This document shows, piece after piece, positions 1,421 through 32,655 of a stretch of DNA of 48,038 nt. Below the pieces are notes generated by a model that saw only the letters and a program-made list of their open reading frames with translations, was not told the origin of the DNA and did not search any database. The position numbers and the translations under genes are program-made. Each line of letters begins with the position of its first letter. Positions within the stretch are counted from its first letter, which is position 1. Source of the DNA: a virus (taxonomy: Duplodnaviria > Heunggongvirae > Uroviricota > Caudoviricetes); the IMG/VR virus record IMGVR_UViG_3300011840_000036, positions 1 to 48,038 of that record; one strand, given 5' to 3'.

Positions 1421-3859
1421 TTAAAAATCAGACTGATTCGGGATCAGTTTTTGCCAGATTGCTGAAACGTATTTCGCCTGGTGACGGGCATCATCCAGCG
1501 CATTGTGGCGTATGCCTTCGAATTGAATAGGCGTCCTGGCATCGAAGTCTATGGATTTTCCCAGTTCAATGATTGTGCGTACATCGCGATCGTTGTAGTA
1601 GCGCCACGGGCAGGGGATACCCTGCCGTTCATATGAACGGCGCAAAATCACGTTGTTGAAGTTGGCTCCATTTCCCCAGACCTGAACAAACAATTCACCG
1701 GAGTTTTCGGCGATAAATTCCCGCAATTGCAGCAGTGCATCATCTAACGGGATTTCATCGGTCAGAATGGCAGATTGCGCTTCGCGTGATTGCTTCAGCC
1801 ACCACTTGATCGCGTCCCGATCAATGACTCCGCCAGCAGTTTCCAGATCGATGGTTTTATTAAATTCTGGTCCCATCTCTCCGGTTTGCGGATCGAAAAA
1901 TATTGCACCTATTGAGATAATCGGGGAATCAGGATTTTTTCCCATTGTTTCAAGGTCGATCATCAGATGGTGACACATTCTGCTGGTGGATGTTCTTTTC
2001 TGATGACCGTGCATATTAATTAAGGAATTTGTCGTCCTGTCAGTTTTATCACCGCTATTGTTATGCTGATTGCTGTCAGTATTTTCCGGATGCGGATGTT
2101 CAGGGTTTTCCATCTCCTCCGGAGCTTTTTCCTGAGATTCATCTGAATCTTCCTCGCAGAATGTCTCATGGTAAGTTGCGTCGCCCATTACTGAGGCACA
2201 GTCAGGGCATGTGCCCCCGCCAGTTTCCCCACAAACATTACAGGGATTTTTCTGTGCATGTTGCGCTGCTGGCTCCGGATGTATCGTTTTTGGTTCATTT
2301 TGGTGTGCATCCTGGCTATTTTGTCCCGATTCTGGCTTGGTTTGTTCCACTTCTGGTTGATTCTGGTTCGAAGACTCGCGAGTCTGGAGCCCCTTAACCC
2401 ATTTCGGATCATTCGGGTCACTAATCCCTTCAACAAATTCTCCGCGAGAGGCTGCCAGTAATTTGTTTGCGTCGACAGGATTTTTAGGCGAAATGTTTTT
2501 CCTAGCTTCATGGAGTTCTGCCCGCAGTTTCTGATATTTCGCATAAACAGAATTCACCTGTGGCTGAGCATCCACCGGCTGCGTGTCCGGATGATGTTCA
2601 GTTGCATCCGGTTCCACTGTTTCAGCCGTTGCCTGTTCATCTGCCATTGCGCCAGATGGTTGCGGTTTTTCTTCATCATGTTTTTCTTTTTCAGTTACAC
2701 GCTGCGGCATCGGGGCAGAGGAGCGACCGCAGGCAATATCCACGATTTCCGGATCAGGGTTGGCATGATCGGTTTCAGTCAGCACTTTATTCAGGTATTC
2801 GGTGACACGGTGGGGCATAGCCTCTATACCAACTGGTGCTTCTTTCACGGAGGCAACCACGATGGCACGGGAGAAATCCTTGTGGCCCGGCATGGTGATG
2901 AATTTGCTGAAGAAAACAGAAAAGGGCGGTTTATTTTCAGCGATAATTTCCTCGACGCGTTTAGCGTGTGCCGGATGAAGGTTATAAATGTCCACGTCCA
3001 TTGAACGGGCCAGCACGCCAGTGGCTACGTCGCGCGCCAGTGATGCATCATCGTGTACAAAACCTTCGCCGCGATCGGTAAGAATACCGCCGCCAGCGTT
3101 AGCGCCGGATGGTGTGCGGCTGATTCGCGAAACATGATTTCCTTTCATCCACTCTTTTGTAAGCAGACCGCGATTGGTGTAGTCAGCGTCCAGGTATGCT
3201 TCGATGAAGGAAGTCATCAGTCCCAGGTCTGAATTTACGGGGGCGGGAAAAACTTTGTCAGTGTCCCGCACCAGTTTGTACAAATCCCGAATCTCCAGCG
3301 GTTCGAGTTGCACTGCTTTATTTGAGATGGCCAGAGCGGTAACGGCGGGAAGTTTTTCTTCCTGTGCGTTATGTAATGCCCGCAGTTCATCCCGTGAAAC
3401 ATGCGTGACAGGTTTTTCGCTGCCGTGCTGTGCCAGCCATCTAACAGGCAGAAGCTGACCTGAAACCGGCAGAAGAATATTCTCCTCAATCTCAATCATG
3501 TCTTCGCCGTTGACGTTAGTATTAGCGGCGTTACTGTTTTCATCGCTGTTGCTGGACGGTACCGGCATCATTGTGATGCCATCTTCTCCACCTTTTTCGT
3601 AACGGTTACAGAAATCAGTATCAAATACGCCTTCAGGTGGCAGGTCATTTACAACAGGCAAATGGATGCGAACTGTTTTTTTGAAATCATCTTCGTCGTA
3701 GCCAGCATCGTCCATAGCGGCAATACAGCGGGAAACTGCAACGGAAAGTTTTTTGGCTTCGATCCAGAAAAAGCCACCTTTAATACCGAGACGCTTTCTG
3801 ACCTTGTCATTTTTAGCTTCGCAATATAGCGCAAACACTTCTTTATTCGTGCTCATCAA
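1421..3859 (-). CDS. Prophage exonuclease with C-terminal DnaQ-like 3'-5' exonuclease domain (often annotated exodeoxyribonuclease VIII)
   Basis: 812-aa ORF; C-terminal MIDLETMG...HNALDDARH is a DEDDh-type exonuclease signature; long acidic, low-complexity central region; sits at the lambda exo/bet position. Confidence 0.8.
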
Positions 3860-17741: not shown

Positions 17742-17907
17742 CTTTTTTTTGCGAACTTTTTAATTTTTATAATATTGTATAATTATGTTTTAAATACCTG
17801 ACATTGTTTGTATTGAAACAGGAGCGGAATTCATTATTATTCTTCGTCGGTTCCAAGGGAGGGTAATTTATGTATCCGGGCATCTCATCCACACCTGAGG
17901 AACCAAT

Positions 17908-17983
<76 letters not shown>

Positions 17984-17986
17984 TAT

Positions 17987-18061
<75 letters not shown>

Positions 18062-20292: not shown

Positions 20293-20475
20293 ATGAGCAG
20301 AAAACACTGGACACACAGAATGCCGCGAGCGGCGGTGAAATGGGCACTGGTAGCGATACTGGTGCCTTTTTTCCTGGTGGGATGCGTCAGCCTGGATAAA
20401 GCGCGCCAGCTTTTCGATACAGCTTCTCAGGTCTGTGAAATTGTCGACGATGTTCGGCAGTGTCTGCAGAACTGA
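20293..20475 (+). CDS. Lysis-associated lipoprotein (lipobox LVGC; possible spanin component)
   Basis: 60-aa product MSRKHWTHRMPRAAVKWALVAILVPFFLVGC... with signal peptide plus lipobox, immediately after the endolysin. Confidence 0.5.
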   Translation: MSRKHWTHRMPRAAVKWALVAILVPFFLVGCVSLDKARQLFDTASQVCEIVDDVRQCLQN

Positions 20476-20646
20476 TCGCCTGTAAGAGCAGAATATTTTG
20501 CTGAAAAATGAAGGGTGCGTCAGCGACCGGAAAGCATGAAATTCTGTGTTTGTGGTTATTCAATAAAATAAATTCTTTATGTCGCCGCGAATACTCAAAT
20601 GTTGATCAGTATCCGGTGCGGCGACGGGCTTAGATATCAGGAGACG

Positions 20647-20946
20647 ATGATGGAAAAAACAGAAAACAAACCGTTTGTAATTGGTGCTGATGCTGCTCCG
20701 TTTAAGTTTGAGTTGTCTCAACTGGTGGAGATGCGCATCAGTGATGAATGGGGTGAGATTAAAGCCCGCGCGCAGTATGCGGATGGCGAAAACCAGTACC
20801 TGATCCACTACAAAGCAGCTGATGGTCGCGCCACGACGGAGTGGTTTGGTGAGTCAATGCTGGAAGCAACAGAAGATAAGCGTCATCCTGGTTGTCCGGT
20901 ATTTGCCGGTATGGAATTACCGGAAGGTGCGGTAGTTACTGAGTAA
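20647..20946 (+). CDS. Hypothetical protein
   Basis: 99-aa ORF from MMEKTENKPF... with AGGAG RBS, between the lysis and packaging modules. Confidence 0.45.
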   Translation: MMEKTENKPFVIGADAAPFKFELSQLVEMRISDEWGEIKARAQYADGENQYLIHYKAADGRATTEWFGESMLEATEDKRHPGCPVFAGMELPEGAVVTE

Positions 20947-21005
20947 CAGCATTACAGCAGCCCTTCAGTGAGGGGCTGCGATAATGCAGCATGAGAAGGT
21001 GGAAT

Positions 21006-21671
21006 ATGGCTGACCTTAACGACCTTCACAGACAGCTTCTGGGAATGCAGAAGCAGGTGCGTTTTGCCACTGCGCGCGCCATCACTGCCACGGTGAGAAA
21101 AATTGAAGCGGCAGAGAAAGAAAACCTTCGCCGGAAGCTGGATAACCCGACGCCGTTCACCGTGAACTCGGTGCGCTCAAAAGGGGCAACAAGGGACAAT
21201 CTGACCGGTCGGGTGTTCATCATGGATACCGCCGTGCCTTACCTTGAACCCTTTGAGGTGGGCGGGCTGCATTATCTCGGTGAGGGGCAGAAAGCTGTAC
21301 TGAACCCGAAAAATATCCGGCTGAACAAATACGGCAACCTGCCAAAGGCAAAACTGCAACAGCTGAAGGCCAGACCGGATGTGTTCATCGGTAAGGTGAC
21401 GAACAACTATGGTGAGGATGTTGGTGGCGTCTGGCAGCGTAAGAAAGCGAAAAAAGTGGCAAAAACCAGGAAGCGGAGAAAACGCTCCCCCAATGGCACA
21501 CGCGCTCCCCGCAAAAAAAGCCGCTCACCAAAGCTGTTGATACGTTTTGGTGATGCACTGCCGGTCACGCCGGTACTGGGTTATCAGGCGCTGGCACACA
21601 ACATGGCATCGCGTCTCATGAAGACGGAGCTGAGTGTGGCGCTTGAACAGGCTTTAAAGACGGCGAAGTGA
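21006..21671 (+). CDS. Hypothetical protein with highly basic Lys/Arg segment
   Basis: 221-aa ORF containing RKKAKKVAKTRKRRKRSPNGTRAPRKKSRSPK; no family recognised. Confidence 0.5.
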   Translation: MADLNDLHRQLLGMQKQVRFATARAITATVRKIEAAEKENLRRKLDNPTPFTVNSVRSKGATRDNLTGRVFIMDTAVPYLEPFEVGGLHYLGEGQKAVLNPKNIRLNKYGNLPKAKLQQLKARPDVFIGKVTNNYGEDVGGVWQRKKAKKVAKTRKRRKRSPNGTRAPRKKSRSPKLLIRFGDALPVTPVLGYQALAHNMASRLMKTELSVALEQALKTAK

Positions 21672-21719
21672 TGCAGGGCATTGTTGCCCTGAAGAAAGAA
21701 CGTGCCAGCAGCGTTTTTA

Positions 21720-21911
21720 TTAACGTGATTCATGGCGAGAGTAACCACACTCTCTGCAAACATAAATGTCCCGCTGAAGGCCTAATACTCCAAACGTTGG
21801 ATCATTTTCAGTTCTGTCGAGCTGAAAAGACGCTTTTTGGCATTTGGGACAGAATTGTGCGCTGGTTGCAGAACAATGGTTCGATTCCAGTTCAGCAACT
21901 CTTCGCTTCAA
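21720..21911 (-). CDS. Putative zinc-ribbon protein (two CxxC pairs), opposite strand
   Basis: 63-aa ORF with CPKC ... CREC; TTG start with AGGAAA upstream; conflicts with the overlapping plus-strand ORF 21668..22000. Confidence 0.35.
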   Translation of the reverse strand: MKRRVAELESNHCSATSAQFCPKCQKASFQLDRTENDPTFGVLGLQRDIYVCRECGYSRHESR

Positions 21912-21996
21912 ATCTTCTATTTCCTGTGGGACTGACTGAAGTTTTTTTCAGAGTGGTATCTTTTCCAGAAGTGTATTTAATTCGGAGAGTATTCCC

Positions 21997-22200
21997 ATGA
22001 ATAACCTCATAAACAAAACTCACATTAGCGAACGCGGCATAGCGATATGCCGCCCCGTTGTTTCATATCTTGATGTTGAAAGAGATGAATCCGGGGGCAG
22101 GACATTGTATATCCACCGCACAGGAGGTGAAACGCTCGTGTTCCCTCTCAATAAGGAGGCGACCTGCCATCTGGTTGCGTTATTGTCTGATGAAACGTGA
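21997..22200 (+). CDS. Hypothetical protein
   Basis: 67-aa ORF just upstream of the cos-like region. Confidence 0.4.
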   Translation: MNNLINKTHISERGIAICRPVVSYLDVERDESGGRTLYIHRTGGETLVFPLNKEATCHLVALLSDET

Positions 22201-22339
22201 GGAAATATATGAAAACCATCAGTCGTGAAAAAATCATCACAGGGTTTTGTGATGGCATTGTGATTTATCGTTATCTTGAGATTTTTGAAACCGCAAGCGG
22301 GTGTCGACACTGTCGCCTGGCAGGGTAACGGGTCCTTCC

Positions 22340-22431
22340 TGGAGACCTTATTGCACGGGCATTGCGCGAGCGCGGTGTTTCGCTAGCTATAAAATTTTGA
22401 AATTTGGGTAACAGGTAACAGAGGGTAACAG
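22340..22431. other. Candidate cos region (cosN/cosB-like) upstream of the small terminase gene
   Basis: GGGCATTGCGCGAG-CGCGGTGTTTCGCTAGCTATAAAATTTTGAAATTTGG resembles the lambda left-end sequence as recalled (GGGCGGCGACCT-CGCGGGTTTTCGCTATTTATGAAAATTTTCC); lies directly upstream of the Nu1-like gene. Confidence 0.5.
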
Positions 22432-22690
22432 ATGAATCAGGCGGAATTCGCAAAACTTCACGGTGTCAGTCGCAAGACGGTAACGGCGTGGAAGGCCCGT
22501 GGCTGGCTGGTTCTGGACGGTGAGGACATCGATGTTGATGCCTCAAACGAGCGGATCCGGCGTTACCGGAAAACTGTTACCCGAATAAAAAATGAGCAAA
22601 AAGGTAACACTTTAGGTAACAGGGTAACATCCGAAGGTAACACTCCGGGTAACAACGAAGGTAACACTCCGGGTAACAACGAAGGTAACA
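22407..22690. repeat. Cluster of about 12 GGTAACA heptamers (3 upstream of terS, 9 inside it encoding Gly-Asn repeats, plus one inverted copy)
   Basis: Direct copies read at about 22407, 22414, 22424, 22603, 22615, 22623, 22636, 22648, 22660, 22672 and 22684; inverted TGTTACC at about 22576. Confidence 0.7.
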
Positions 22691-23073
22691 GCATTGCCCT
22701 GTACGATGACTCCTCTGATGTATCGAAAGAAGCACGGGTCGAACAGTTCATTGCCAGCCACGGAGCCATGATGACGCTCGATGAAGCCAGAACCATGAAA
22801 GAGAACTACTTCGCGCTGCTGGCAAAACTCGAGTATGACGAAAAGAAAGGAACACTGCTTCCCTGGAAACCCATCATTGAGCGGGTCGGGGCGGAGTATA
22901 CCCGGGTGAGGACGCGCCTTGTTGCCCTTGCGCCGGAACATGGTCCCCGTCTGCGGGCGCTGGCGGGGATGACAGACGATCAGGGATTCACGGCGGCATT
23001 GCAGGAACTGATTTACGAGGCGCTGAATGAACTTGCATTTGACAGGCGCGAAACCCACGGAGATACAGTTTGA
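22432..23073 (+). CDS. Terminase small subunit (lambda Nu1-like, N-terminal HTH)
   Basis: 213-aa ORF; N-terminus MNQAEFAKLHGVSRKTVTAWKARGW resembles the Nu1 DNA-binding domain; overlaps the terL start; internal GNTPGNNE repeats. Confidence 0.85.
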   Translation: MNQAEFAKLHGVSRKTVTAWKARGWLVLDGEDIDVDASNERIRRYRKTVTRIKNEQKGNTLGNRVTSEGNTPGNNEGNTPGNNEGNSIALYDDSSDVSKEARVEQFIASHGAMMTLDEARTMKENYFALLAKLEYDEKKGTLLPWKPIIERVGAEYTRVRTRLVALAPEHGPRLRALAGMTDDQGFTAALQELIYEALNELAFDRRETHGDTV

Positions 23074-25006
23074 GGATGCGCTGCTTTCGTGTCCGCGTTA
23101 TCTTGCGCCTCCGCCTCCATTATCCTTAAGTCAGTGGGCCAACACCTTCGCTGTACTGTCCCGTGAGACCAGTGCCCAGACGGGGAAATTCCGCTCCTAT
23201 CCCTATCAGGACGGCATAATGGATGCCATCACCGACCCGTCAGTCACGTATGTGTCTGTGATGAAATCAGCCCGTGTGGGATACACGAAAATTCTTGATC
23301 ATGTGGTGGGCTATTACCTGGCACATGATCCGTCCCCCATCCTGGTGGTTCAGCCGAGGGTGGAGGATGCCGAAGACTACAGTAAAACCGAAATTGCCCC
23401 GATGCTGCGCGACACGCCGGTGCTGGCAGGCATCAGCGGCGACCCGAAGGCAAAAAACAGCAACCAGACCATTCTTCGCAAAACCTTTTCCAACGGCGCA
23501 AACCTCACGCTGGTCGGGGCCAACTCCCCCGGCGGTTTTCGCCGTATCACATGCCGCATCATCCTTTTTGATGAGGTGGACGGGTATCCGGCAGGGGGCG
23601 CAGGGTCCGAAGGGGATCAGATTGCGCTGGGAACAAAACGTTCCGAAACCTTCTGGAACCGCAAGATTGTTCTCGGCTCAACGCCAACCGTGAAAGGCGT
23701 GAGCCGTATTGAAAAAGCCTGGCTGGAAAGCGATCAGCGCCGCTACTTCGTGCCCTGTCCTCACTGCGGTGAATATCAGGTGCTGGAGTGGGGCAGCAAA
23801 AGCACCCCTTACGGCATCAAGTGGGAAAAGGACAGCGAAGGTAACGGGCTGCCGGAGACCGCTTACTACCTGTGCCGCCACCACGGCTGTGTGATTGTGC
23901 ACAGTGAACTGCCCGGGATGCTGGAAAAAGGCGAATGGCGCGCCGGTGCACCATTCAGGGGGCATGCCGGTTTTCATATCTGGACGGGCTACAGCCCGCA
24001 CTCAAATGCCTCCTGGCCGAATCTGGTCGCCGAATGGCTGAGGGTGAAGGACGATCCGCTGATGCGCCAGACATTCATCAATACCACGCTGGGCGAGCCT
24101 TACGAGGATGCAGGCGAGTTTGCGATGAGTGAGCAGCGGCTGATCGCCCGCGTTGAGGTCTGGGGGGCGGAGGTGCCGTATGGCGTGCTCCTGCTCACCG
24201 CCGGGGTGGATACGCAGGATGACCGCTTCGAAATCACCGTTCTCGGCTGGGGCATGAACGAAGAATGCTGGGTGATTGCGCATGACATGATTTTTGGTGA
24301 CCTTGAAACAGAAGAGCCGTGGGAGCGCCTTGATGCGTATCTGAAGCAGGTCTGGCGGCGGGCTGACGGTTTCGGGCTGACGCTCTCGGCGGTCTGCCAT
24401 GACTCGGGCGGTCATCACACCAACAAAGTGTATGAGTTCTCGAAGGCGCGTATCGGGCGTCGTATCTGGGCGACAAAAGGTGAGTCGGCGACGGGCGGTA
24501 AACGTAACCCTGTCTGGCCGACGCGTGTCGTTTCGTCCCGCAACCGGAAATCCTTCCGCCCCGTCATTCTGGGGGTGAACTCCGCGAAGGACGACATCAG
24601 GCACCGGCTCCATATTGAGCCGGATCCGGCAGGCGCGCCTGCCGCAGGCTGTATCCATTTTCCGTCGTTTCTGGATTTGCATTATTTCAGTCAGCTGCTC
24701 TCTGAGCGTCTGGTGCGTAAGGAGAACGGCGGGCAGGTGTACCGTGTCTGGGAGCTGTCTGCCGGACGGGCGAATGAGGCGCTGGACTGCATGGTGTACG
24801 GTTACGCGGCCCTGAAGGGGCTGCTGCATCACGGTCTGAAACTGAACCGTCTGGCTGAACGGGCGGCGCAGGATCTGTCATTCATGGAGCCGCCTCCCGC
24901 GCAGCCGGAAGAAAAAATCAGTTTAAGTATGCCGGGCGCAAAAGCACCGGAGACACCCCGTAAGAAAATACCGCTGCATATGAGGCTTGCAGGAGTGAGA
25001 CGATGA
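23027..25006 (+). CDS. Terminase large subunit (lambda gpA-like)
   Basis: 659-aa ORF with extensive similarity by eye to lambda gpA (KSARVGYTK..., FDEVDGYP..., CPHCGEYQ..., FINTTLGEPYE). Confidence 0.95.
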   Translation: MNLHLTGAKPTEIQFEDALLSCPRYLAPPPPLSLSQWANTFAVLSRETSAQTGKFRSYPYQDGIMDAITDPSVTYVSVMKSARVGYTKILDHVVGYYLAHDPSPILVVQPRVEDAEDYSKTEIAPMLRDTPVLAGISGDPKAKNSNQTILRKTFSNGANLTLVGANSPGGFRRITCRIILFDEVDGYPAGGAGSEGDQIALGTKRSETFWNRKIVLGSTPTVKGVSRIEKAWLESDQRRYFVPCPHCGEYQVLEWGSKSTPYGIKWEKDSEGNGLPETAYYLCRHHGCVIVHSELPGMLEKGEWRAGAPFRGHAGFHIWTGYSPHSNASWPNLVAEWLRVKDDPLMRQTFINTTLGEPYEDAGEFAMSEQRLIARVEVWGAEVPYGVLLLTAGVDTQDDRFEITVLGWGMNEECWVIAHDMIFGDLETEEPWERLDAYLKQVWRRADGFGLTLSAVCHDSGGHHTNKVYEFSKARIGRRIWATKGESATGGKRNPVWPTRVVSSRNRKSFRPVILGVNSAKDDIRHRLHIEPDPAGAPAAGCIHFPSFLDLHYFSQLLSERLVRKENGGQVYRVWELSAGRANEALDCMVYGYAALKGLLHHGLKLNRLAERAAQDLSFMEPPPAQPEEKISLSMPGAKAPETPRKKIPLHMRLAGVRR

Positions 25007-29844: not shown

Positions 29845-30030
29845 ATGGCGTCCGGCAAAAAGGGCGCGCCGGTTGACTATGTTGTGCTGCGCGGTTGTGT
29901 GCAGCACAACGGACAACGGGTGGCGCAGGGTAATGTGATCACCCTGAGCGAAAGCGAGGCGCAGCGTCTTCTGCGTCTGGGGGTGATTGTTCCACTGGCG
30001 GAGATGAAGGGTGATGGCCGGACCGGTTGA
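29845..30030 (+). CDS. Small head-associated protein (hypothetical)
   Basis: 61-aa ORF starting 2 nt after the capsid stop codon. Confidence 0.45.
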   Translation: MASGKKGAPVDYVVLRGCVQHNGQRVAQGNVITLSESEAQRLLRLGVIVPLAEMKGDGRTG

Positions 30031-30346
30031 CTGGGACAAAAATCTGTTGTCCCCGTTGTTCGGGGTGTTTGGTGAGGAATGCGAACACCGCCCGCGTGGC
30101 GGTGAGGCGTACCGGCTGACCGGGATTTTTGACCGGGCGTACACGCAGCAGCTTGTCGGCGAGGACGGGGGCACGGAATCAAACTCCACGCTGCCCGTGC
30201 TGGGCGTGCGGGATGCGGCGTGTCGCGTGAAGCCGAAGCAGGGCGATATTTTCCTCATCGTGCGCACGGGGGAGCTGTATATCGTGCGGGATGTGCAACC
30301 GGACAGCCACGGCGGCACGCGACTTGAACTGAACAGGGTGAAGTGA
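30011..30346 (+). CDS. Head-tail connector/adaptor protein (hypothetical, FII-like position)
   Basis: 111-aa ORF between the head and tail modules. Confidence 0.5.
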   Translation: MMAGPVDWDKNLLSPLFGVFGEECEHRPRGGEAYRLTGIFDRAYTQQLVGEDGGTESNSTLPVLGVRDAACRVKPKQGDIFLIVRTGELYIVRDVQPDSHGGTRLELNRVK

Positions 30347-30906
30347 TGAATACCGCAGAAGCCAGAAAAATTGTCACCCGGGCACTGAACGACTGTTCCG
30401 GTTTTGGCGGTCGGGTGTATTCCCCGCGCACCCTGCCGGTGATGCCGGACCAGTACCCGCTCATCATTGTGTCCGTGCAGTCCGAACACAAGGTGTCACA
30501 GGGGCGGCATGTGCCGCAGTTCACCACCACCACGACCCTGCGTATCGACGGTCGCGTGCTGGCGTATGACAGCGGGGACGAGACGGAAAATGCAGCAGGC
30601 GTGGCGTGGGAAGAGGCGGAGGCGATGAAGGAGGCGATAGAGCGTGCCGTCATCGGTAATCCGGACGTCCGCATGAAGTTTCAGCAAATCAGCAGGATCC
30701 GGTCGCATATCGGCGTGGATTCCGACGGTGAAGCGCACACCGGTATTGTGGTGCTGGAGCTGGATCTGGAGTACTACCAGGGGCCGGAGGATTTCTTCCC
30801 GTCTGAGATTGTCCCGCTGCGTGAGGTGAACGTGCGCGGCGTGTATCCGTCATTCCGCCTGCATTTTGATTTGTCTGCCGGTGATGAAACCGGCAGTGAA
30901 ACCTGA
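30343..30906 (+). CDS. Tail completion/neck protein (Mu gp37-like position)
   Basis: 187-aa ORF, start overlapping the previous stop. Confidence 0.5.
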   Translation: MMNTAEARKIVTRALNDCSGFGGRVYSPRTLPVMPDQYPLIIVSVQSEHKVSQGRHVPQFTTTTTLRIDGRVLAYDSGDETENAAGVAWEEAEAMKEAIERAVIGNPDVRMKFQQISRIRSHIGVDSDGEAHTGIVVLELDLEYYQGPEDFFPSEIVPLREVNVRGVYPSFRLHFDLSAGDETGSET

Positions 30907-30919
30907 CAGGAGAAATTCC

Positions 30920-31156
30920 ATGTTTGTGAAACCTGTACCGGGGCGCAGGGTGCGCTACCCCGGCGACCCGTCACGTCTGCTGCCTGATGAGGGGGCGGAG
31001 GTGCCGGATCGTGATTTGTTCTGGCGACGCCGCCTGAAGCAGGGGGATGTGGTACTGGCTGACAGGGCCACCACGGCAGCCACCGGCAAAGTGACCGCGT
31101 CCACGACAGCAACAGGCAGCACGTCTGCCAGCACGGCGAAAGGGGGTGATGCATGA
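30920..31156 (+). CDS. Small tail-module protein (Mu gp38-like position)
   Basis: 78-aa ORF from MFVKPVPGRRVRYPG..., directly upstream of the sheath gene. Confidence 0.45.
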   Translation: MFVKPVPGRRVRYPGDPSRLLPDEGAEVPDRDLFWRRRLKQGDVVLADRATTAATGKVTASTTATGSTSASTAKGGDA

Positions 31157-32655
31157 CGGTATCGTTCAGCAATATCCCGTCAAATCTCCGTGTGCCACTG
31201 TTCTATGTTGAAGTGGACAACTCAATGGCGAACAGCGCCACGGAGACGCAGCGCACCCTGCTGATTGGTCAGATGACGGCTGCGGGAACGGCCACGGCAG
31301 GGACGGCATACCGCTGTTCATCGGCCTCCATGGCTGCCGGGCTGTGCGGGGAAGGCTCCATGCTGCATACCATGCTGATGGCCTACCTTAAAAATGACAG
31401 CTACGGAGAGACCTGGCTGCTGCCGCTGGCAGATGATGACAGCAGCATGACGACGGCCACAGGCAGTATATCTGTTGACAGTGTGCCGACGGCATCCGGC
31501 GTTATTTACCTGTACATCGCAGGCACCCGCGTGCGCCTGACGGTGAAGCCAGCGTACACGCGGGCAGAGATTGCCAGTCTGCTGGCAGACAGAATCAACG
31601 CCACCTCCGGGCTGCCGGTGACGGCCTCCGTGCCCCGTGATGGCACGACCGTTGAGCTTACGGCCAGAAATGCCGGTGAGACGGGAAACACCATTGATAT
31701 CCGGCTGAACTATCTCGGGTCATCCGGCGGCGAGTCCACCCCGGACGGCCTGACGCTGACCATCACGGCGATGAGTGGCGGGGAGGGTGCGCCGGACCTT
31801 GCGGATGCGCTCGCCTCTCTGGGCGACCGCACGTTTGATTTCATTGTCCTGGCGTATTCCGACACCACATCGCTCAACGACATGAAGGATTTTCTGTCGG
31901 ATGACGAAGGTCGCTGGGCGTGGGACAAACAAATTTACGGCCATGCCTTCACGGCGGTAAACGGCAGCTATGGCGAGCTGGCAGACAAGGGAGAGCGCCG
32001 CAACGACCAGCACATGACACTCTGGGGAGTGTATGACGGTCCGAACACCTCATATGACTATGCCGCCGCGATGGTGGGGGCGCTGGCGCAGTCGGTCCGC
32101 AACGATCCGGCGAGACCCACCCAGACGCTGCCGGTATCCGGTGTGCTGGCCCCGCCGCTGGCAAGCCGTTTCACCCTGACGGAGCGGAACACGCTTCTCT
32201 ACAGCGGTATCTCAACCTTCACGGTGTCGGCCGACGATACGGTGACGCTTGAGAATACCATCACCACGTACCAGACCAACCGATACGGTGCGACAGACGA
32301 CAGCTACCTGCAGATCGAGACGATGTACACGCTGATGTATGTATGCCGCGACATGCGCACACAGGTGACCTCGAAGTTTGGACGGATGAAGCTGGCAGAT
32401 GACGACGCGAATATTCCGGCAGGGGCTGCGATAGCCACACCTGCGATTATTCGTGCTGAGCTGATCGCCCGGTTCCGGACGCTGGCGAGCAACGGCTACG
32501 TGCAGAATGCGGATGCGTTTGCGGAGCAACTGGTGGTTGAGCGTGACAGTGACAACCCGAACCGCGTGAACGTGGTGTGGCCGGGCCGCCTGATGAACCA
32601 GTTACGCATCTTTGCGGTGCTGAACCAGTTCAGTCTGAACAGCCGCAGCGATTAA
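31153..32655 (+). CDS. Contractile tail sheath protein (Mu gpL-like)
   Basis: 500-aa ORF followed by tube, chaperone and tape-measure genes in canonical myovirus order. Confidence 0.8.
   Translation: MTVSFSNIPSNLRVPLFYVEVDNSMANSATETQRTLLIGQMTAAGTATAGTAYRCSSASMAAGLCGEGSMLHTMLMAYLKNDSYGETWLLPLADDDSSMTTATGSISVDSVPTASGVIYLYIAGTRVRLTVKPAYTRAEIASLLADRINATSGLPVTASVPRDGTTVELTARNAGETGNTIDIRLNYLGSSGGESTPDGLTLTITAMSGGEGAPDLADALASLGDRTFDFIVLAYSDTTSLNDMKDFLSDDEGRWAWDKQIYGHAFTAVNGSYGELADKGERRNDQHMTLWGVYDGPNTSYDYAAAMVGALAQSVRNDPARPTQTLPVSGVLAPPLASRFTLTERNTLLYSGISTFTVSADDTVTLENTITTYQTNRYGATDDSYLQIETMYTLMYVCRDMRTQVTSKFGRMKLADDDANIPAGAAIATPAIIRAELIARFRTLASNGYVQNADAFAEQLVVERDSDNPNRVNVVWPGRLMNQLRIFAVLNQFSLNSRSD

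What the first reader, a model, noticed from the sequence alone, without database searches (positions are those of the whole stretch)
20647..22330. Unassigned gene block between lysis and packaging, including a basic 221-aa protein and a possible opposite-strand zinc-ribbon gene
About 1.7 kb between the lysis cassette and cos holds ORFs with no recognised function. The 21006 protein carries an extremely basic stretch, suggesting nucleic-acid binding. A two-CxxC zinc-ribbon ORF on the opposite strand conflicts with a plus-strand ORF that is start/stop-coupled (TGATG) to the upstream gene. This is a typical moron or defence slot in lambdoid phages.
Basis: partly seen in the sequence, partly recalled or inferred. 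Interest (0 to 1): 0.45.

Follow-up and report, generated by a model that had tools for sequence, protein, structure and literature searches.

The report
Displaced tail-completion gene plus decaying moron
The "unassigned" block before the phage's DNA-packaging site holds an ordinary virion-assembly gene (a relative of lambda's tail-completion protein gpZ) sitting in an unusual place, followed by a small, rare, already broken accessory cassette. It is a tidy annotation fix, not a new system.

Summary
The ORFs exist as described, but the block is three different things.

1. **The basic 221-aa protein (21006-21671,+) is not a moron.** It belongs to a large family (about 1,200 relatives; PHROG 1924 "minor tail protein"). 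Its confident model has the lambda-gpZ / HK97-gp10 tail-completion (Neck1) architecture. In about 55 prophages from Enterobacterales to Azospirillum, Burkholderia and Bryobacterales, the gene sits just upstream of cos-TerS-TerL. The usual Neck1 slot between gpFII and the sheath is empty there. The polybasic loop is a family trait.

2. **Bases 21677-22322 are a 646-bp insertion.** It occurs in only 4 of 5,426 complete E. coli genomes. It carries a real minus-strand zinc-ribbon gene. This is a 92-codon family member (21998-21720) cut by TGG→TGA at invariant Trp17. Its partner is a conserved 67-aa gene (21997-22200,+), and the two start codons overlap in a CATG. Sibling copies carry other knock-outs, so the cassette is decaying.

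3. **The plus-strand 110-aa ORF is spurious.** The "TGATG coupling" is simply the 3' end of the tail-completion gene.

The 99-aa ORF (20647-20946) is a conserved phage gene of unknown function.

The parts
20647..20946 (+). 99-aa conserved phage ORF of unknown function (phiP27 L33 family, PHROG 1935). It is intact. It does not belong to the tail-completion family or to the insertion.
   Evidence: PHROG 1935, E 7e-59. It is 95% identical to phiP27 L33 and occurs in Yersinia, Escherichia and Burkholderia phages, always annotated as hypothetical. No Pfam, NCBIfam or PADLOC hit. The single-sequence AF2 model was unusable, pLDDT 43.9.
21006..21671 (+). Tail-completion protein (TCP / Neck1) of the lambda-gpZ type, 221 aa, encoded just upstream of cos instead of between the head-closure and tail-terminator genes.
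   Evidence: PHROG 1924 'minor tail protein', E 5.7e-51, and PHROG 27 'tail completion or Neck1', E 0.004. Of 105 diverse relatives, 25 hit PHROG 27 (best 3.2e-6) and 6 hit PF06763 Minor_tail_Z weakly. AF2 model pLDDT 92.9: long N- and C-terminal helices with a beta domain between them. BFVD fold hits include HK97-gp10, Ne1 and minor tail proteins. hhalign to lambda gpZ gives E 7.7e-4 over 179 columns. Synteny holds in about 55 loci.
21438..21533 (+). Polybasic loop of the TCP (residues 145-176, RKKAKKVAKTRKRRKRSPNGTRAPRKKSRSPK). It is flexible and inserted in the beta domain.
   Evidence: 18 K/R and 0 D/E in 32 residues. 100 of 105 family members have a net loop charge of +5 or more. Model confidence is lower here, pLDDT 67-74. 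The loop is conserved in enterobacterial relatives.
21677..22322 (.). 646-bp accessory insertion (moron-like cassette) between the TCP stop codon and the conserved cos region.
   Evidence: E. coli relatives L007 and L008 have about 16 bp in place of this segment. The full segment is found in 4 of 5,426 E. coli genomes. GC is 0.41-0.46 against about 0.53-0.55 in the flanks.
21720..21998 (-). Zinc-ribbon gene, 92 codons, disrupted by TGG->TGA at invariant Trp17 (plus-strand 21948-21950).
   Evidence: It aligns over residues 1-89 at 66% identity with Salmonella P0280, through the stop codon. W17 is invariant in 13 family members. All five E. coli copies carry the TGA. IMG/VR copy L106 has TGG at codon 17 but an independent CGA->TGA at codon 32. 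The family has 17 clusters among 5.8 billion proteins.
21997..22200 (+). 67-aa partner gene of the zinc-ribbon gene, transcribed divergently. The two start codons overlap by 2 nt in a CATG (21996-21999), and each Shine-Dalgarno sequence lies in the other gene's first codons.
   Evidence: Homologues at 36-44% identity sit head-to-head with the zinc-ribbon gene in Salmonella, Ewingella, Raoultella, Morganella and IMG/VR contigs. The junction TTCGGAGAGTATTCC-CATGA-nnACCTC is conserved. The gene is knocked out in two E. coli copies, E31* in ST2350 and +1G in DS26-1.
21668..22000 (+). 110-aa ORF antisense to the zinc-ribbon gene. Judged a chance ORF, not a gene.
   Evidence: No family hit in any library and no tblastn hit in related loci. 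The equivalent antisense frame has 2-8 stops in five homologous loci. Its start lies in the conserved flank and its body in the inserted DNA. The PapM-36-2 copy has a 1-nt deletion at 21684.
22209..22328 (+). 39-aa ORF (43 aa from the GTG at 22197) at the right edge of the insertion. Doubtful.
   Evidence: No homologue or family hit. Its stop codon lies in the conserved flank GGGTAACGGG beyond the insertion boundary.
22359..22370 (.). Predicted 12-nt cohesive end (cosN), GCATTGCGCGAG. It marks the right-hand limit of the block.
   Evidence: Window 22327-22445 aligns with the right end plus left end of Serratia phage BZS1. BZS1's 12-nt 5' overhang, GCATTGCGCGCC, was mapped experimentally (PMC7556043).

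Best explanation
The block is a mosaic of three unrelated things.

**(1) The 221-aa protein is the phage's tail-completion protein (TCP, also called Neck1).** It is the counterpart of lambda gpZ, HK97 gp10 and SPP1 gp16.1.

- Expression (inferred from position only): it is made late from the transcript that runs through the lysis genes.
- Action (inferred by analogy): it joins the finished contractile tail at its head-proximal end. [quoted passage not shown]
- Polybasic loop (inferred): it would contact that DNA end. Loss of the protein would give unjoined or poorly infectious particles.
- Gene position (shown): in this lineage (lambda-type head with gpW, gpFII and a gpU-like protein, plus a Mu-like sheath and baseplate) the gene is not between gpFII and the terminator. 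It is the last gene before cos, so it lies at the extreme right end of virion DNA.

**(2) Bases 21677-22322 are a rare accessory insertion.**

- It carries a two-gene cassette: a 92-aa zinc-ribbon protein and a 67-aa partner.
- The two are transcribed divergently with overlapping start codons.
- Here the zinc-ribbon gene is inactivated by a nonsense codon, and the cassette is decaying.

**(3) The 99-aa ORF is an independent, conserved late-region gene of unknown function.**

The 110-aa plus-strand ORF is an artefact.
For: **Family and fold of the 221-aa protein**

- PHROG 1924 'minor tail protein', E 5.7e-51; PHROG 27 'tail completion or Neck1', E 0.004.
- Among 105 diverse relatives: 105 hit PHROG 1924, 25 hit PHROG 27 (best 3.2e-6), 16 hit PHROG 4688 'minor tail protein', and 6 hit PF06763 Minor_tail_Z weakly.
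- AF2 model pLDDT 92.9, pTM 0.82: helix 4-44, beta domain 56-182, helix 193-220. This matches the published description of TCPs, with lambda gpZ having a beta domain inserted at the apex.
- BFVD hits reach TM 0.72-0.77, and named hits are HK97-gp10, Ne1 and minor tail proteins.
- A weak PDB Foldseek hit is a chain of the SaPI1/80alpha neck entry (9mu2_P).
- In an hhalign panel the family matches lambda gpZ best (E 7.7e-4, 179 columns). The neighbouring 187-aa neck protein matches lambda gpU best (E 2.7e-3).

**Synteny**

- In about 55 loci from many genera and several phyla the gene lies 0.75-2.2 kb upstream of TerS-TerL-portal-S49-gpD-MCP-gpFII-p187-DUF2635-sheath.
- It is the last or near-last gene before cos in the isolated phages BZS1, R4C and RcCronus.
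- No Neck1 gene lies between gpFII and the sheath in the window. phiP27, which lacks this family, has one there.
- Displaced TCP genes are already known in Mu and P2.

**Basic loop**

- 100 of 105 relatives have a net loop charge of +5 or more.

**Insertion and pseudogene**

Against: - No direct evidence places any member of this family in a virion. Gel-band mass spectrometry of BZS1 particles found 13 proteins but not the homologue p72. The R4C cryo-EM study modelled 12 proteins but not ORF049. Both results are expected for a one-copy internal protein, but neither supports the claim.
- Sequence links to curated TCP models are sub-threshold. The window protein itself has no Pfam hit to PF06763 or PF04883. 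hhalign probability to gpZ is only 25%. A PDB profile search found nothing.
- The role proposed for the basic loop rests on analogy with 80alpha, a headful packager with a much smaller TCP.
- The zinc-ribbon gene could still yield some full-length protein, because UGA read-through by tRNA-Trp would restore the original residue.
Confidence: 0.72

Rival explanations
1. The 221-aa protein is a DNA-binding packaging accessory that acts at cos, a helper of terminase or a cos-end binding or protecting factor. It would not be a virion tail component.
For: Its gene is invariably adjacent to cos and TerS. It has a very basic loop and pI 10.9. It was not detected in BZS1 virions or modelled in R4C.
Against: Sequence and fold point to TCP/Neck1 proteins, not to any packaging factor. 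The family stays at 57-62% identity while TerS and TerL are swapped between classes (75% versus 45% versus 25% identity), so it does not co-vary with terminase. The canonical Neck1 slot is empty.
Confidence: 0.1
2. The whole block, including the 221-aa protein, is a moron or anti-phage defence slot.
For: The position between lysis genes and cos is a known moron site in lambdoid phages (established knowledge). The 646-bp segment really is a variable insertion. In Salmonella the same zinc-ribbon cassette sits beside HicAB toxin-antitoxin genes.
Against: The 221-aa gene is a fixed part of the virion module across several phyla. No PADLOC model matches it. The only PADLOC hits in the block are generic zinc-ribbon similarities to a Cas12a segment. 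The inserted cassette is inactivated here.
Confidence: 0.04
3. The zinc-ribbon gene is still functional in this prophage. It would work either as the 63-aa product started at the TTG (21911) or as full-length protein made by UGA read-through, since tRNA-Trp would restore Trp17.
For: Natural short forms of 68-69 aa exist, P0282 and the Raoultella L035 copy. The four Cys and the rest of the reading frame are intact in the window. UGA is the leakiest stop codon and is misread as Trp (established knowledge).
Against: Three of five E. coli copies carry Y86D at an invariant Tyr. A sibling copy has an independent nonsense codon at R32. The partner gene is knocked out in two copies. This is the pattern of a decaying locus. 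The invariant N-terminal helix MGILSEL..IPLW would be missing from the 63-aa form.
Confidence: 0.15
4. The plus-strand 110-aa ORF (21668-22000) is the real gene, translationally coupled to the 221-aa gene, as PGAP annotates it in strain DS26-1.
For: TGATG start/stop overlap. PGAP calls it in one of four genomes, WP_063079835.1.
Against: No homologues or family hits. PGAP does not call it in C8, ST2350 or PapM-36-2. The frame is closed by 2-8 stops in homologous loci, while the opposite strand is conserved at protein level. PapM-36-2 has a 1-nt deletion in it. The TGATG also exists where the ORF is absent.
Confidence: 0.03

Closest known systems
Lambda gpZ (Pfam PF06763 Minor_tail_Z; UniProt P03731), the prototype tail-completion protein
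   Same: Similar size (192 versus 221 aa) and very basic (pI 12.0 versus 10.9), with a polybasic run. Weak collinear similarity over the full length, E 7.7e-4. Same overall architecture of two long terminal helices with an inserted beta domain, as described for the gpZ model. It occurs in a phage with the same lambda-type neck partners: gpW, gpFII and a gpU-like protein.
   Different: The gene is not between FII and U but upstream of cos and Nu1. The window protein does not reach any Pfam threshold. The polybasic segment lies in a different loop. The tail it would complete is contractile and Mu-like, not a lambda siphovirus tail.
HK97 gp10 / SPP1 gp16.1 / 80alpha gp51 (PHROG 27, Neck1; Pfam PF04883)
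   Same: Weak sequence hits to PHROG 27 for the window protein and for 25 of 105 relatives. Fold-level hits to HK97-gp10-family and Ne1 proteins, and a weak hit to a chain of the 80alpha/SaPI1 neck structure. The expected role is a low-copy protein in the neck lumen that touches the tape measure and the DNA end, needed for head-tail joining and correct DNA delivery.
   Different: It is about twice the size, with a large beta domain and a 32-residue polybasic loop. Those proteins are encoded directly upstream of the terminator and tube genes.
Mu gpG and P2 gpS, tail-completion proteins of myoviruses whose genes lie away from the tail module
   Same: They are the precedent for a TCP gene displaced from the neck gene cluster in contractile-tailed phages. 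The rest of this tail is Mu-like: DUF2635/Mup38, sheath L, tube M and baseplate.
   Different: No detectable sequence relationship (hhalign E 0.03-0.05 over about 32 columns). Mu G lies inside the head module, not before the terminase genes.
Lambdoid morons between the lysis genes and cos (for example lambda bor), for the 646-bp insertion only
   Same: Same genomic slot, lower GC, patchy distribution among close relatives, and one gene on the opposite strand.
   Different: No similarity to bor or to any known moron or defence family. It is a two-gene head-to-head cassette, and here it is a pseudogene.

Membership tests
Tail-completion protein / Neck1 (lambda gpZ, HK97 gp10, SPP1 gp16.1; PHROG 27, PF06763, PF04883) | Significant match to a curated family model | tested here: inconclusive
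   Strong match to PHROG 1924 'minor tail protein' (5.7e-51), but only E 0.004 to PHROG 27 and no Pfam hit for the window protein. Among 105 relatives, 25 hit PHROG 27 (best 3.2e-6) and 6 hit PF06763 (best 4.7e-4, below the gathering score). hhalign to gpZ gives E 7.7e-4, probability 25%.
Tail-completion protein / Neck1 (lambda gpZ, HK97 gp10, SPP1 gp16.1; PHROG 27, PF06763, PF04883) | Fold: long N-terminal and C-terminal helices joined by a loop or beta region (a beta domain at the apex in gpZ) | tested here: met
   AF2 model pLDDT 92.9: H4-44, strands 56-182, H193-220. BFVD matches include HK97-gp10, Ne1 and minor tail proteins. No direct superposition on a gpZ model was possible.
Tail-completion protein / Neck1 (lambda gpZ, HK97 gp10, SPP1 gp16.1; PHROG 27, PF06763, PF04883) | Gene lies between the head-closure gene and the tail-terminator and tube genes | tested here: not met
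   The gene lies upstream of cos and TerS, about 9 kb from gpFII. The same criterion fails for the accepted TCPs of Mu and P2, so it is typical of the family but not defining.
Tail-completion protein / Neck1 (lambda gpZ, HK97 gp10, SPP1 gp16.1; PHROG 27, PF06763, PF04883) | One such protein per long-tailed phage; it co-occurs with adaptor, head-closure and terminator proteins | tested here: met
   The window has gpW, gpFII (PF05354) and a gpU-like 187-aa protein, but no other Neck1 candidate among the proteins scanned between the capsid and sheath genes. Co-occurrence holds in about 55 loci. phiP27 lacks the family and has a canonical Neck1.
Tail-completion protein / Neck1 (lambda gpZ, HK97 gp10, SPP1 gp16.1; PHROG 27, PF06763, PF04883) | Present in tails or virions; loss blocks head-tail joining or infectivity | not testable with these tools
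   Published data on relatives are silent. BZS1 virion mass spectrometry did not list p72, and R4C cryo-EM did not model ORF049.
   This criterion is not met for the 221-aa gene, which is core and syntenic in about 55 loci. It is met for bases 21677-22322 only, which are found in 4 of 5,426 genomes and absent from L007 and L008.
   PADLOC returned only a generic zinc-ribbon similarity to a Cas12a segment (E 5e-5) and a marginal HamC hit (E 0.006). Nothing matched the 99-aa or 221-aa proteins.
Uncharacterised 91-96-aa zinc-ribbon family (P0271-P0285) with head-to-head partner | Conserved MGILSEL..IPLW N-terminus, coiled-coil segment, CPxC...CxxC ribbon; uninterrupted reading frame | tested here: not met
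   All motifs are recognisable and the four Cys are present, but codon 17 (invariant Trp) is TGA in the window and in four E. coli genomes. The window copy is therefore a pseudogene of the family, not an intact member.
Uncharacterised 91-96-aa zinc-ribbon family (P0271-P0285) with head-to-head partner | Divergent partner gene whose ATG overlaps the zinc-ribbon ATG in CATG | tested here: met
   The window has CATG at 21996-21999. The same junction occurs in L034, L086, L087, L088 and 12 intact IMG/VR loci. It is mutated to CCTG in L035 and L107.

The most novel reading that the evidence does not exclude
The zinc-ribbon and 67-aa pair may be a previously undescribed kind of two-gene accessory module.

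- Its defining feature is a head-to-head overlap of the start codons in a CATG.
- Each ribosome-binding site is embedded in the partner's first codons, so each promoter must lie inside the partner gene.
- The two mRNAs would then be mutually antisense at their 5' ends. That would give either/or expression, as in a built-in toggle or a toxin-antitoxin-like pair.
- The order of decay fits one partner being needed only while the other is active. The zinc-ribbon gene was knocked out twice independently, and the partner was then lost in two sub-lineages.
- The copy in this window would be a dead example of the module.
Probability: 0.2. Interest if true: 0.5.

Novelty: new member of a known kind. 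Interest (0 to 1): 0.3.

Why it matters
**Annotation.** RefSeq calls the 221-aa protein 'hypothetical' in the E. coli genomes inspected. The family has about 1,200 relatives. All of these can be annotated as the tail-completion (Neck1) protein of a widespread class of phages with a lambda-type head and a Mu-type tail.

**Neck classification.** Schemes that look for Neck1 only between the head and tail genes would score these phages as lacking it.

**Biology.** How tail-completion proteins work is still poorly understood. A family with a large beta domain and a conserved polybasic loop, in cos phages whose DNA end is sequence-defined, is a convenient system for testing the proposed contact with the DNA end.

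**Gene calling.** The work removes a spurious gene call (the 110-aa ORF) and identifies a pseudogene. It also flags a small gene pair with overlapping divergent start codons that may merit study in hosts where it is intact.

Tried and rejected
- **PDB searches.** PDB sequence searches with the 221-aa protein and with a 105-sequence profile found nothing useful. Foldseek against the PDB gave only one weak partial hit, 9mu2_P.
- **Other comparisons.** hhalign of the family against Mu gpG, Mu gp36, Mu gp37/gpK, phiP27 L42 (Neck1), phiP27 L43 (terminator), lambda U and lambda FII was negative. BLASTP of the 187-aa neck protein against Mu gp37 and phiP27 L43 was also negative.
- **Zinc-ribbon ORF.** A search of the big protein collection with the 63-aa ORF alone found no candidate. 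It succeeded only with an alignment that included full-length homologues. tblastn of the zinc-ribbon and 67-aa proteins against 50,697 phage records found nothing.
- **Family scans.** Pfam, NCBIfam and PADLOC scans of all small ORFs, and of full-length cassette homologues, gave only generic sub-threshold zinc-ribbon hits.
- **99-aa protein.** The single-sequence AF2 model had pLDDT 43.9, so it was not taken to a fold search.
- **Promoters and terminators.** The promoter scan of the block was at chance level (2 found, 2.1 expected). Terminator-like hairpins were above chance (8 versus 2.5), but I did not pursue them.
- **Virion evidence.** I looked for virion proteomics of family members. The BZS1 and R4C papers do not report the protein, and the marine-phage proteomics supplement is not held.
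- **Rejected idea.** I considered that the TCP co-evolves with terminase. Its identity stays about constant across three TerL/TerS classes, so I rejected this.
Full report
**Setting.** The window is a prophage related to phiP27 in its lysis region only; phiP27 shares bases 20400-20987 at 96% identity. It has a lambda-type packaging and head module:
- TerS 22432-23073 and TerL 23027-25006
- gpW, portal, S49 protease, a gpD-like decoration protein and a gpE-like capsid protein
- gpFII 30011-30346

A Mu-like contractile tail follows: DUF2635, sheath 31153-32655, tube, chaperone, tape measure and baseplate. Near-identical copies of the whole finding region occur in only four complete E. coli genomes: C8, DS26-1, PapM-36-2 and ST2350. 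RefSeq calls every gene in the block hypothetical.

**Checking the observation.**
- The 221-aa protein has 18 Lys/Arg and no acidic residue in residues 145-176, and a pI of 10.9.
- The right-hand boundary can be placed precisely. Window 22327-22445 aligns with the right end joined to the left end of Serratia phage vB_SspM_BZS1. That phage's 12-nt 5' cohesive end (GCATTGCGCGCC) was mapped experimentally (PMC7556043).
- The window counterpart is GCATTGCGCGAG at 22359-22370. The block is therefore the last 1.7 kb before cos, at the extreme right end of virion DNA.

**The 221-aa protein: family and fold.**
- It matches PHROG 1924 ('minor tail protein') over its full length, E 5.7e-51. It weakly matches PHROG 27 ('tail completion or Neck1 protein'), E 0.004.
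- The family is large. There are 1,277 hits in the 5.8-billion-protein collection, a few of which their sources name gpZ, HK97 gp10 family or tail protein. There are 1,171 representatives at 50% clustering.
- Of 105 diverse representatives, all hit PHROG 1924, 25 hit PHROG 27 (best 3.2e-6), 16 hit PHROG 4688 'minor tail protein', and 6 hit Pfam PF06763 Minor_tail_Z below threshold.
- An AlphaFold2 model built on that alignment is confident (pLDDT 92.9, pTM 0.82). It shows a 40-residue N-terminal helix, a beta domain (56-182) and a 28-residue C-terminal helix. The basic loop is the least confident part.
- This is the architecture that Kizziah et al. describe for tail-completion proteins. In 80alpha gp51, two long terminal helices flank a loop and hairpin. 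[quoted passage not shown]
- Foldseek against viral models gave two unnamed matches at TM 0.72-0.77. A tail of named matches were HK97-gp10 family, 'Neck Ne1', 'minor tail' or 'tail component' proteins.
- Against the PDB the only suggestive hit was a chain of the SaPI1/80alpha neck entry, probability 0.63 over 78 columns.
- In a small hhalign panel the family matched lambda gpZ best (E 7.7e-4, 179 collinear columns, probability only 25%). It did not match gpU, gpFII, Mu G, Mu gp36/37 or phiP27 L42/L43. The neighbouring 187-aa neck protein (30343-30906) matched lambda gpU best, E 2.7e-3.
- Each sequence link is weak on its own. Together with the fold, they point one way.

**The 221-aa protein: synteny.** This is the strongest argument. 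I fetched 74 genomic loci that encode relatives and mapped the window's virion proteins onto them.
- In essentially every locus with enough flank (about 55), the gene lies 0.75-2.2 kb upstream of TerS-TerL-portal-S49-gpD-MCP-gpFII-p187-DUF2635-sheath, on the same strand.
- These loci span Enterobacterales, Azospirillum, Burkholderia/Paraburkholderia, Chromobacterium, Pseudomonas, an alphaproteobacterial MAG and a Bryobacterales MAG.
- Precomputed annotations of two further contigs show the same order: lysis genes, this gene, then terminase.
- In isolated cos phages it is the last or near-last gene of the linear genome: BZS1 p72, Dinoroseobacter R4C ORF049 and Rhodobacter RcCronus gp44. The last two are siphoviruses.
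- A moron would not behave like this.
- The canonical Neck1 slot between gpFII and the terminator-like protein is empty in the window. phiP27 lacks this family and has a recognisable Neck1 (L42) followed by a terminator (L43, PF23840) in that slot.
- Auzat et al. already note that the usual TCP gene context 'is lost in myoviruses P2 and Mu' (PMC11099176). A displaced TCP gene therefore has precedent.

**How the protein most likely works.**
- Shown: the family, the fold, the synteny, and the family-wide basic loop. In the family 100 of 105 members have a net loop charge of +5 or more, and the loop K/R fraction is 0.32 against 0.15 elsewhere.
- Inferred from position: the gene is transcribed with the late operon that runs from the lysis genes across cos into the head genes.
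- Inferred by analogy: the protein is added to the head-proximal end of the finished tail. In 80alpha a TCP monomer sits in the neck lumen, forms a beta sheet with the tape-measure N-termini, and touches the DNA end. SPP1 gp16.1 helps tail-to-head joining and is needed for correct routing of DNA into the cell. Lambda particles lacking gpZ are about 500-fold less infectious, and gpZ was proposed to act on the DNA end.
- On that basis the flexible polybasic loop would be the DNA-end contact. Lambda gpZ is likewise extremely basic (pI 12.0, with an RRRRRKK run), though in a different loop.
- Against: no family member has been seen in a virion. BZS1 gel-band mass spectrometry listed 13 proteins without p72, and the R4C cryo-EM model has 12 proteins without ORF049. 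This is the usual fate of TCPs in symmetrised maps, so it is neutral rather than contrary.

**The 646-bp insertion.** Alignment with E. coli relatives L007 and L008 shows that window 21677-22322 replaces about 16 bp. In those strains the TCP stop and the TerS start are about 130 bp apart.
- A distant-mode search finds the segment in 4 of 5,426 complete E. coli genomes. The cos-proximal 118 bp is shared more widely.
- GC drops to 0.41-0.46 in the segment.
It also exists where the insertion is absent, and there it is followed by an 8-codon ORF.

**Which strand is coding at 21668-22000.** The minus strand is.
- tblastn of the window's small ORFs against the fetched loci hit only the zinc-ribbon ORF and the 67-aa ORF, together, in Ewingella and Raoultella.
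- A profile of three zinc-ribbon sequences found a small family: 17 clusters among 5.8 billion proteins, typically 91-96 aa. Members come from Salmonella, Morganella, Xenorhabdus, Photorhabdus, Ewingella, Klebsiella, Arsenophonus and Cupriavidus.
- Read on the minus strand from the ATG at 21998-21996, the window encodes the whole family sequence: MGILSELNTLLEKIPL*KKLQ...CPKC...CRECGY. Codon 17 is TGA where 13 of 13 relatives have Trp.
- The 110-aa plus-strand frame has 2-8 stops in five homologous loci, has no homologue anywhere, and carries a 1-nt deletion in strain PapM-36-2. PGAP calls it in only one of the four genomes. It is a chance antisense ORF.

**The cassette and its decay.** The 67-aa ORF (21997-22200) is the conserved partner of the zinc-ribbon gene, at 36-44% identity.
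- The two genes are divergent and their ATGs overlap by two bases in a CATG.
- The partner's Shine-Dalgarno sequence (GGAGAG) is the reverse complement of zinc-ribbon codons 4-6. The zinc-ribbon gene's Shine-Dalgarno sequence (GAGGT) is the reverse complement of partner codons 3-4.
- This junction is conserved in Salmonella, Ewingella, Morganella and 12 intact IMG/VR copies.
- The cassette occupies different accessory slots in different prophages: after the TCP gene, between Q and the holin, or beside HicAB. No library gives it a function.
- In E. coli it is breaking down. All five copies share W17*. Three also have Y86D at an invariant Tyr. The partner gene has E31* in ST2350 and a +1G frameshift in DS26-1.
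- An IMG/VR copy 98.7% identical to the window keeps TGG at codon 17 but has an independent CGA→TGA at codon 32.
- In Raoultella (L035) and in the IMG/VR copy L107, the CATG reads CCTG, a change that removes both start codons.
- I therefore read the window copy as a pseudogenised cassette. Low-level UGA read-through, which would restore Trp, cannot be excluded.

**The remaining ORFs.**
- The 99-aa ORF (20647-20946) is PHROG 1935 (E 7e-59). It is 95% identical to phiP27 L33 and occurs in Yersinia, Escherichia and Burkholderia phages and about 280 E. coli genomes.
- Its distribution is independent of the TCP: phiP27 has it without the TCP, and only 5 of the fetched loci have both. No function can be assigned, and the single-sequence model failed.
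- The 39/43-aa ORF (22197/22209-22328) has no homologue, and its stop codon lies beyond the insertion boundary. I treat it as doubtful.

**Verdict.**
- Its main gene is a recognisable structural gene in an atypical, but lineage-wide and precedented, position.
- The 'conflict' region is a rare, decaying accessory insertion whose true gene is on the minus strand.
- Novelty is modest: a new, well-supported member of the tail-completion family with a displaced gene and a polybasic loop.
- The one unusual item, the start-codon-overlapping gene pair, is dead in this window and would be better studied elsewhere.

Noticed in passing
window 22407-22690: 12 of the window's 17 GGTAACA heptamers cluster here (4.5 expected by chance in the whole window). 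Three lie directly before the TerS ATG and nine inside TerS, where they form about 24-nt tandem units encoding EGNTPGNN repeats. The upstream trio is conserved in Serratia phage BZS1 just downstream of its mapped cos end. An IMG/VR sibling (L106) lacks exactly one 24-bp unit (22632-22655). These are probably TerS-binding (cosB-like) repeats that also shape the protein.
   Followed up: partly
window 21996-21999 and loci L034, L086, L087, L088, L094-L106: Divergent genes (zinc-ribbon protein and 67-aa partner) whose ATGs overlap in a CATG. Each ribosome-binding site lies inside the partner's first codons. The arrangement is conserved across at least five genera, so each promoter must lie inside the other gene.
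   Followed up: partly
L106 (IMG/VR UViG_2713896795_000007), equivalent to window 21905: A 98.7%-identical copy of this region keeps Trp17 of the zinc-ribbon gene but has a separate nonsense codon at Arg32. 4 of the 11 point differences between the two copies fall in the 279-bp zinc-ribbon gene. This suggests repeated inactivation rather than a single accident.
   Followed up: yes
window 20293-20475 (+): A 60-aa ORF right after the endolysin (PHROG 7528) has a signal peptide ending in a lipobox (FLVGC). It looks like an outer-membrane lipoprotein or o-spanin-like product, and I recognised no Rz-type partner gene next to it.
   Followed up: no
window 30343-30906 (+): A 187-aa protein between gpFII and DUF2635/sheath (PHROG 6774, 'unknown') shows weak N-terminal profile similarity to the lambda gpU tail terminator (E 2.7e-3). 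Its BZS1 homologue p11 was detected in virions but is annotated 'ATP-binding tail sheath protein'. It is likely the tail terminator of this lineage.
   Followed up: partly
L109 (Dinoroseobacter phage R4C) and L091 (Rhodobacter phage RcCronus): In these siphoviruses the homologue of the 221-aa protein is the very last gene of the linear genome. In R4C the tail terminator (ORF018) is also displaced, to after the tail-fibre gene. Scattered neck genes seem typical of this lambda-terminase lineage.
   Followed up: no
window about 17907-18060 (from L001 annotation, 3508-3661): RefSeq annotates tRNA-Thr and tRNA-Gly genes between the DNA methyltransferase and the holin genes of the near-identical prophage in E. 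coli C8. I did not verify them in the window.
   Followed up: no
window 20950-20990: A GC-rich hairpin (GCAGCCC-TTCAGTGAG-GGGCTGC) lies between the 99-aa ORF and the tail-completion gene. It has no following T-run, so it is not an obvious intrinsic terminator.
   Followed up: no
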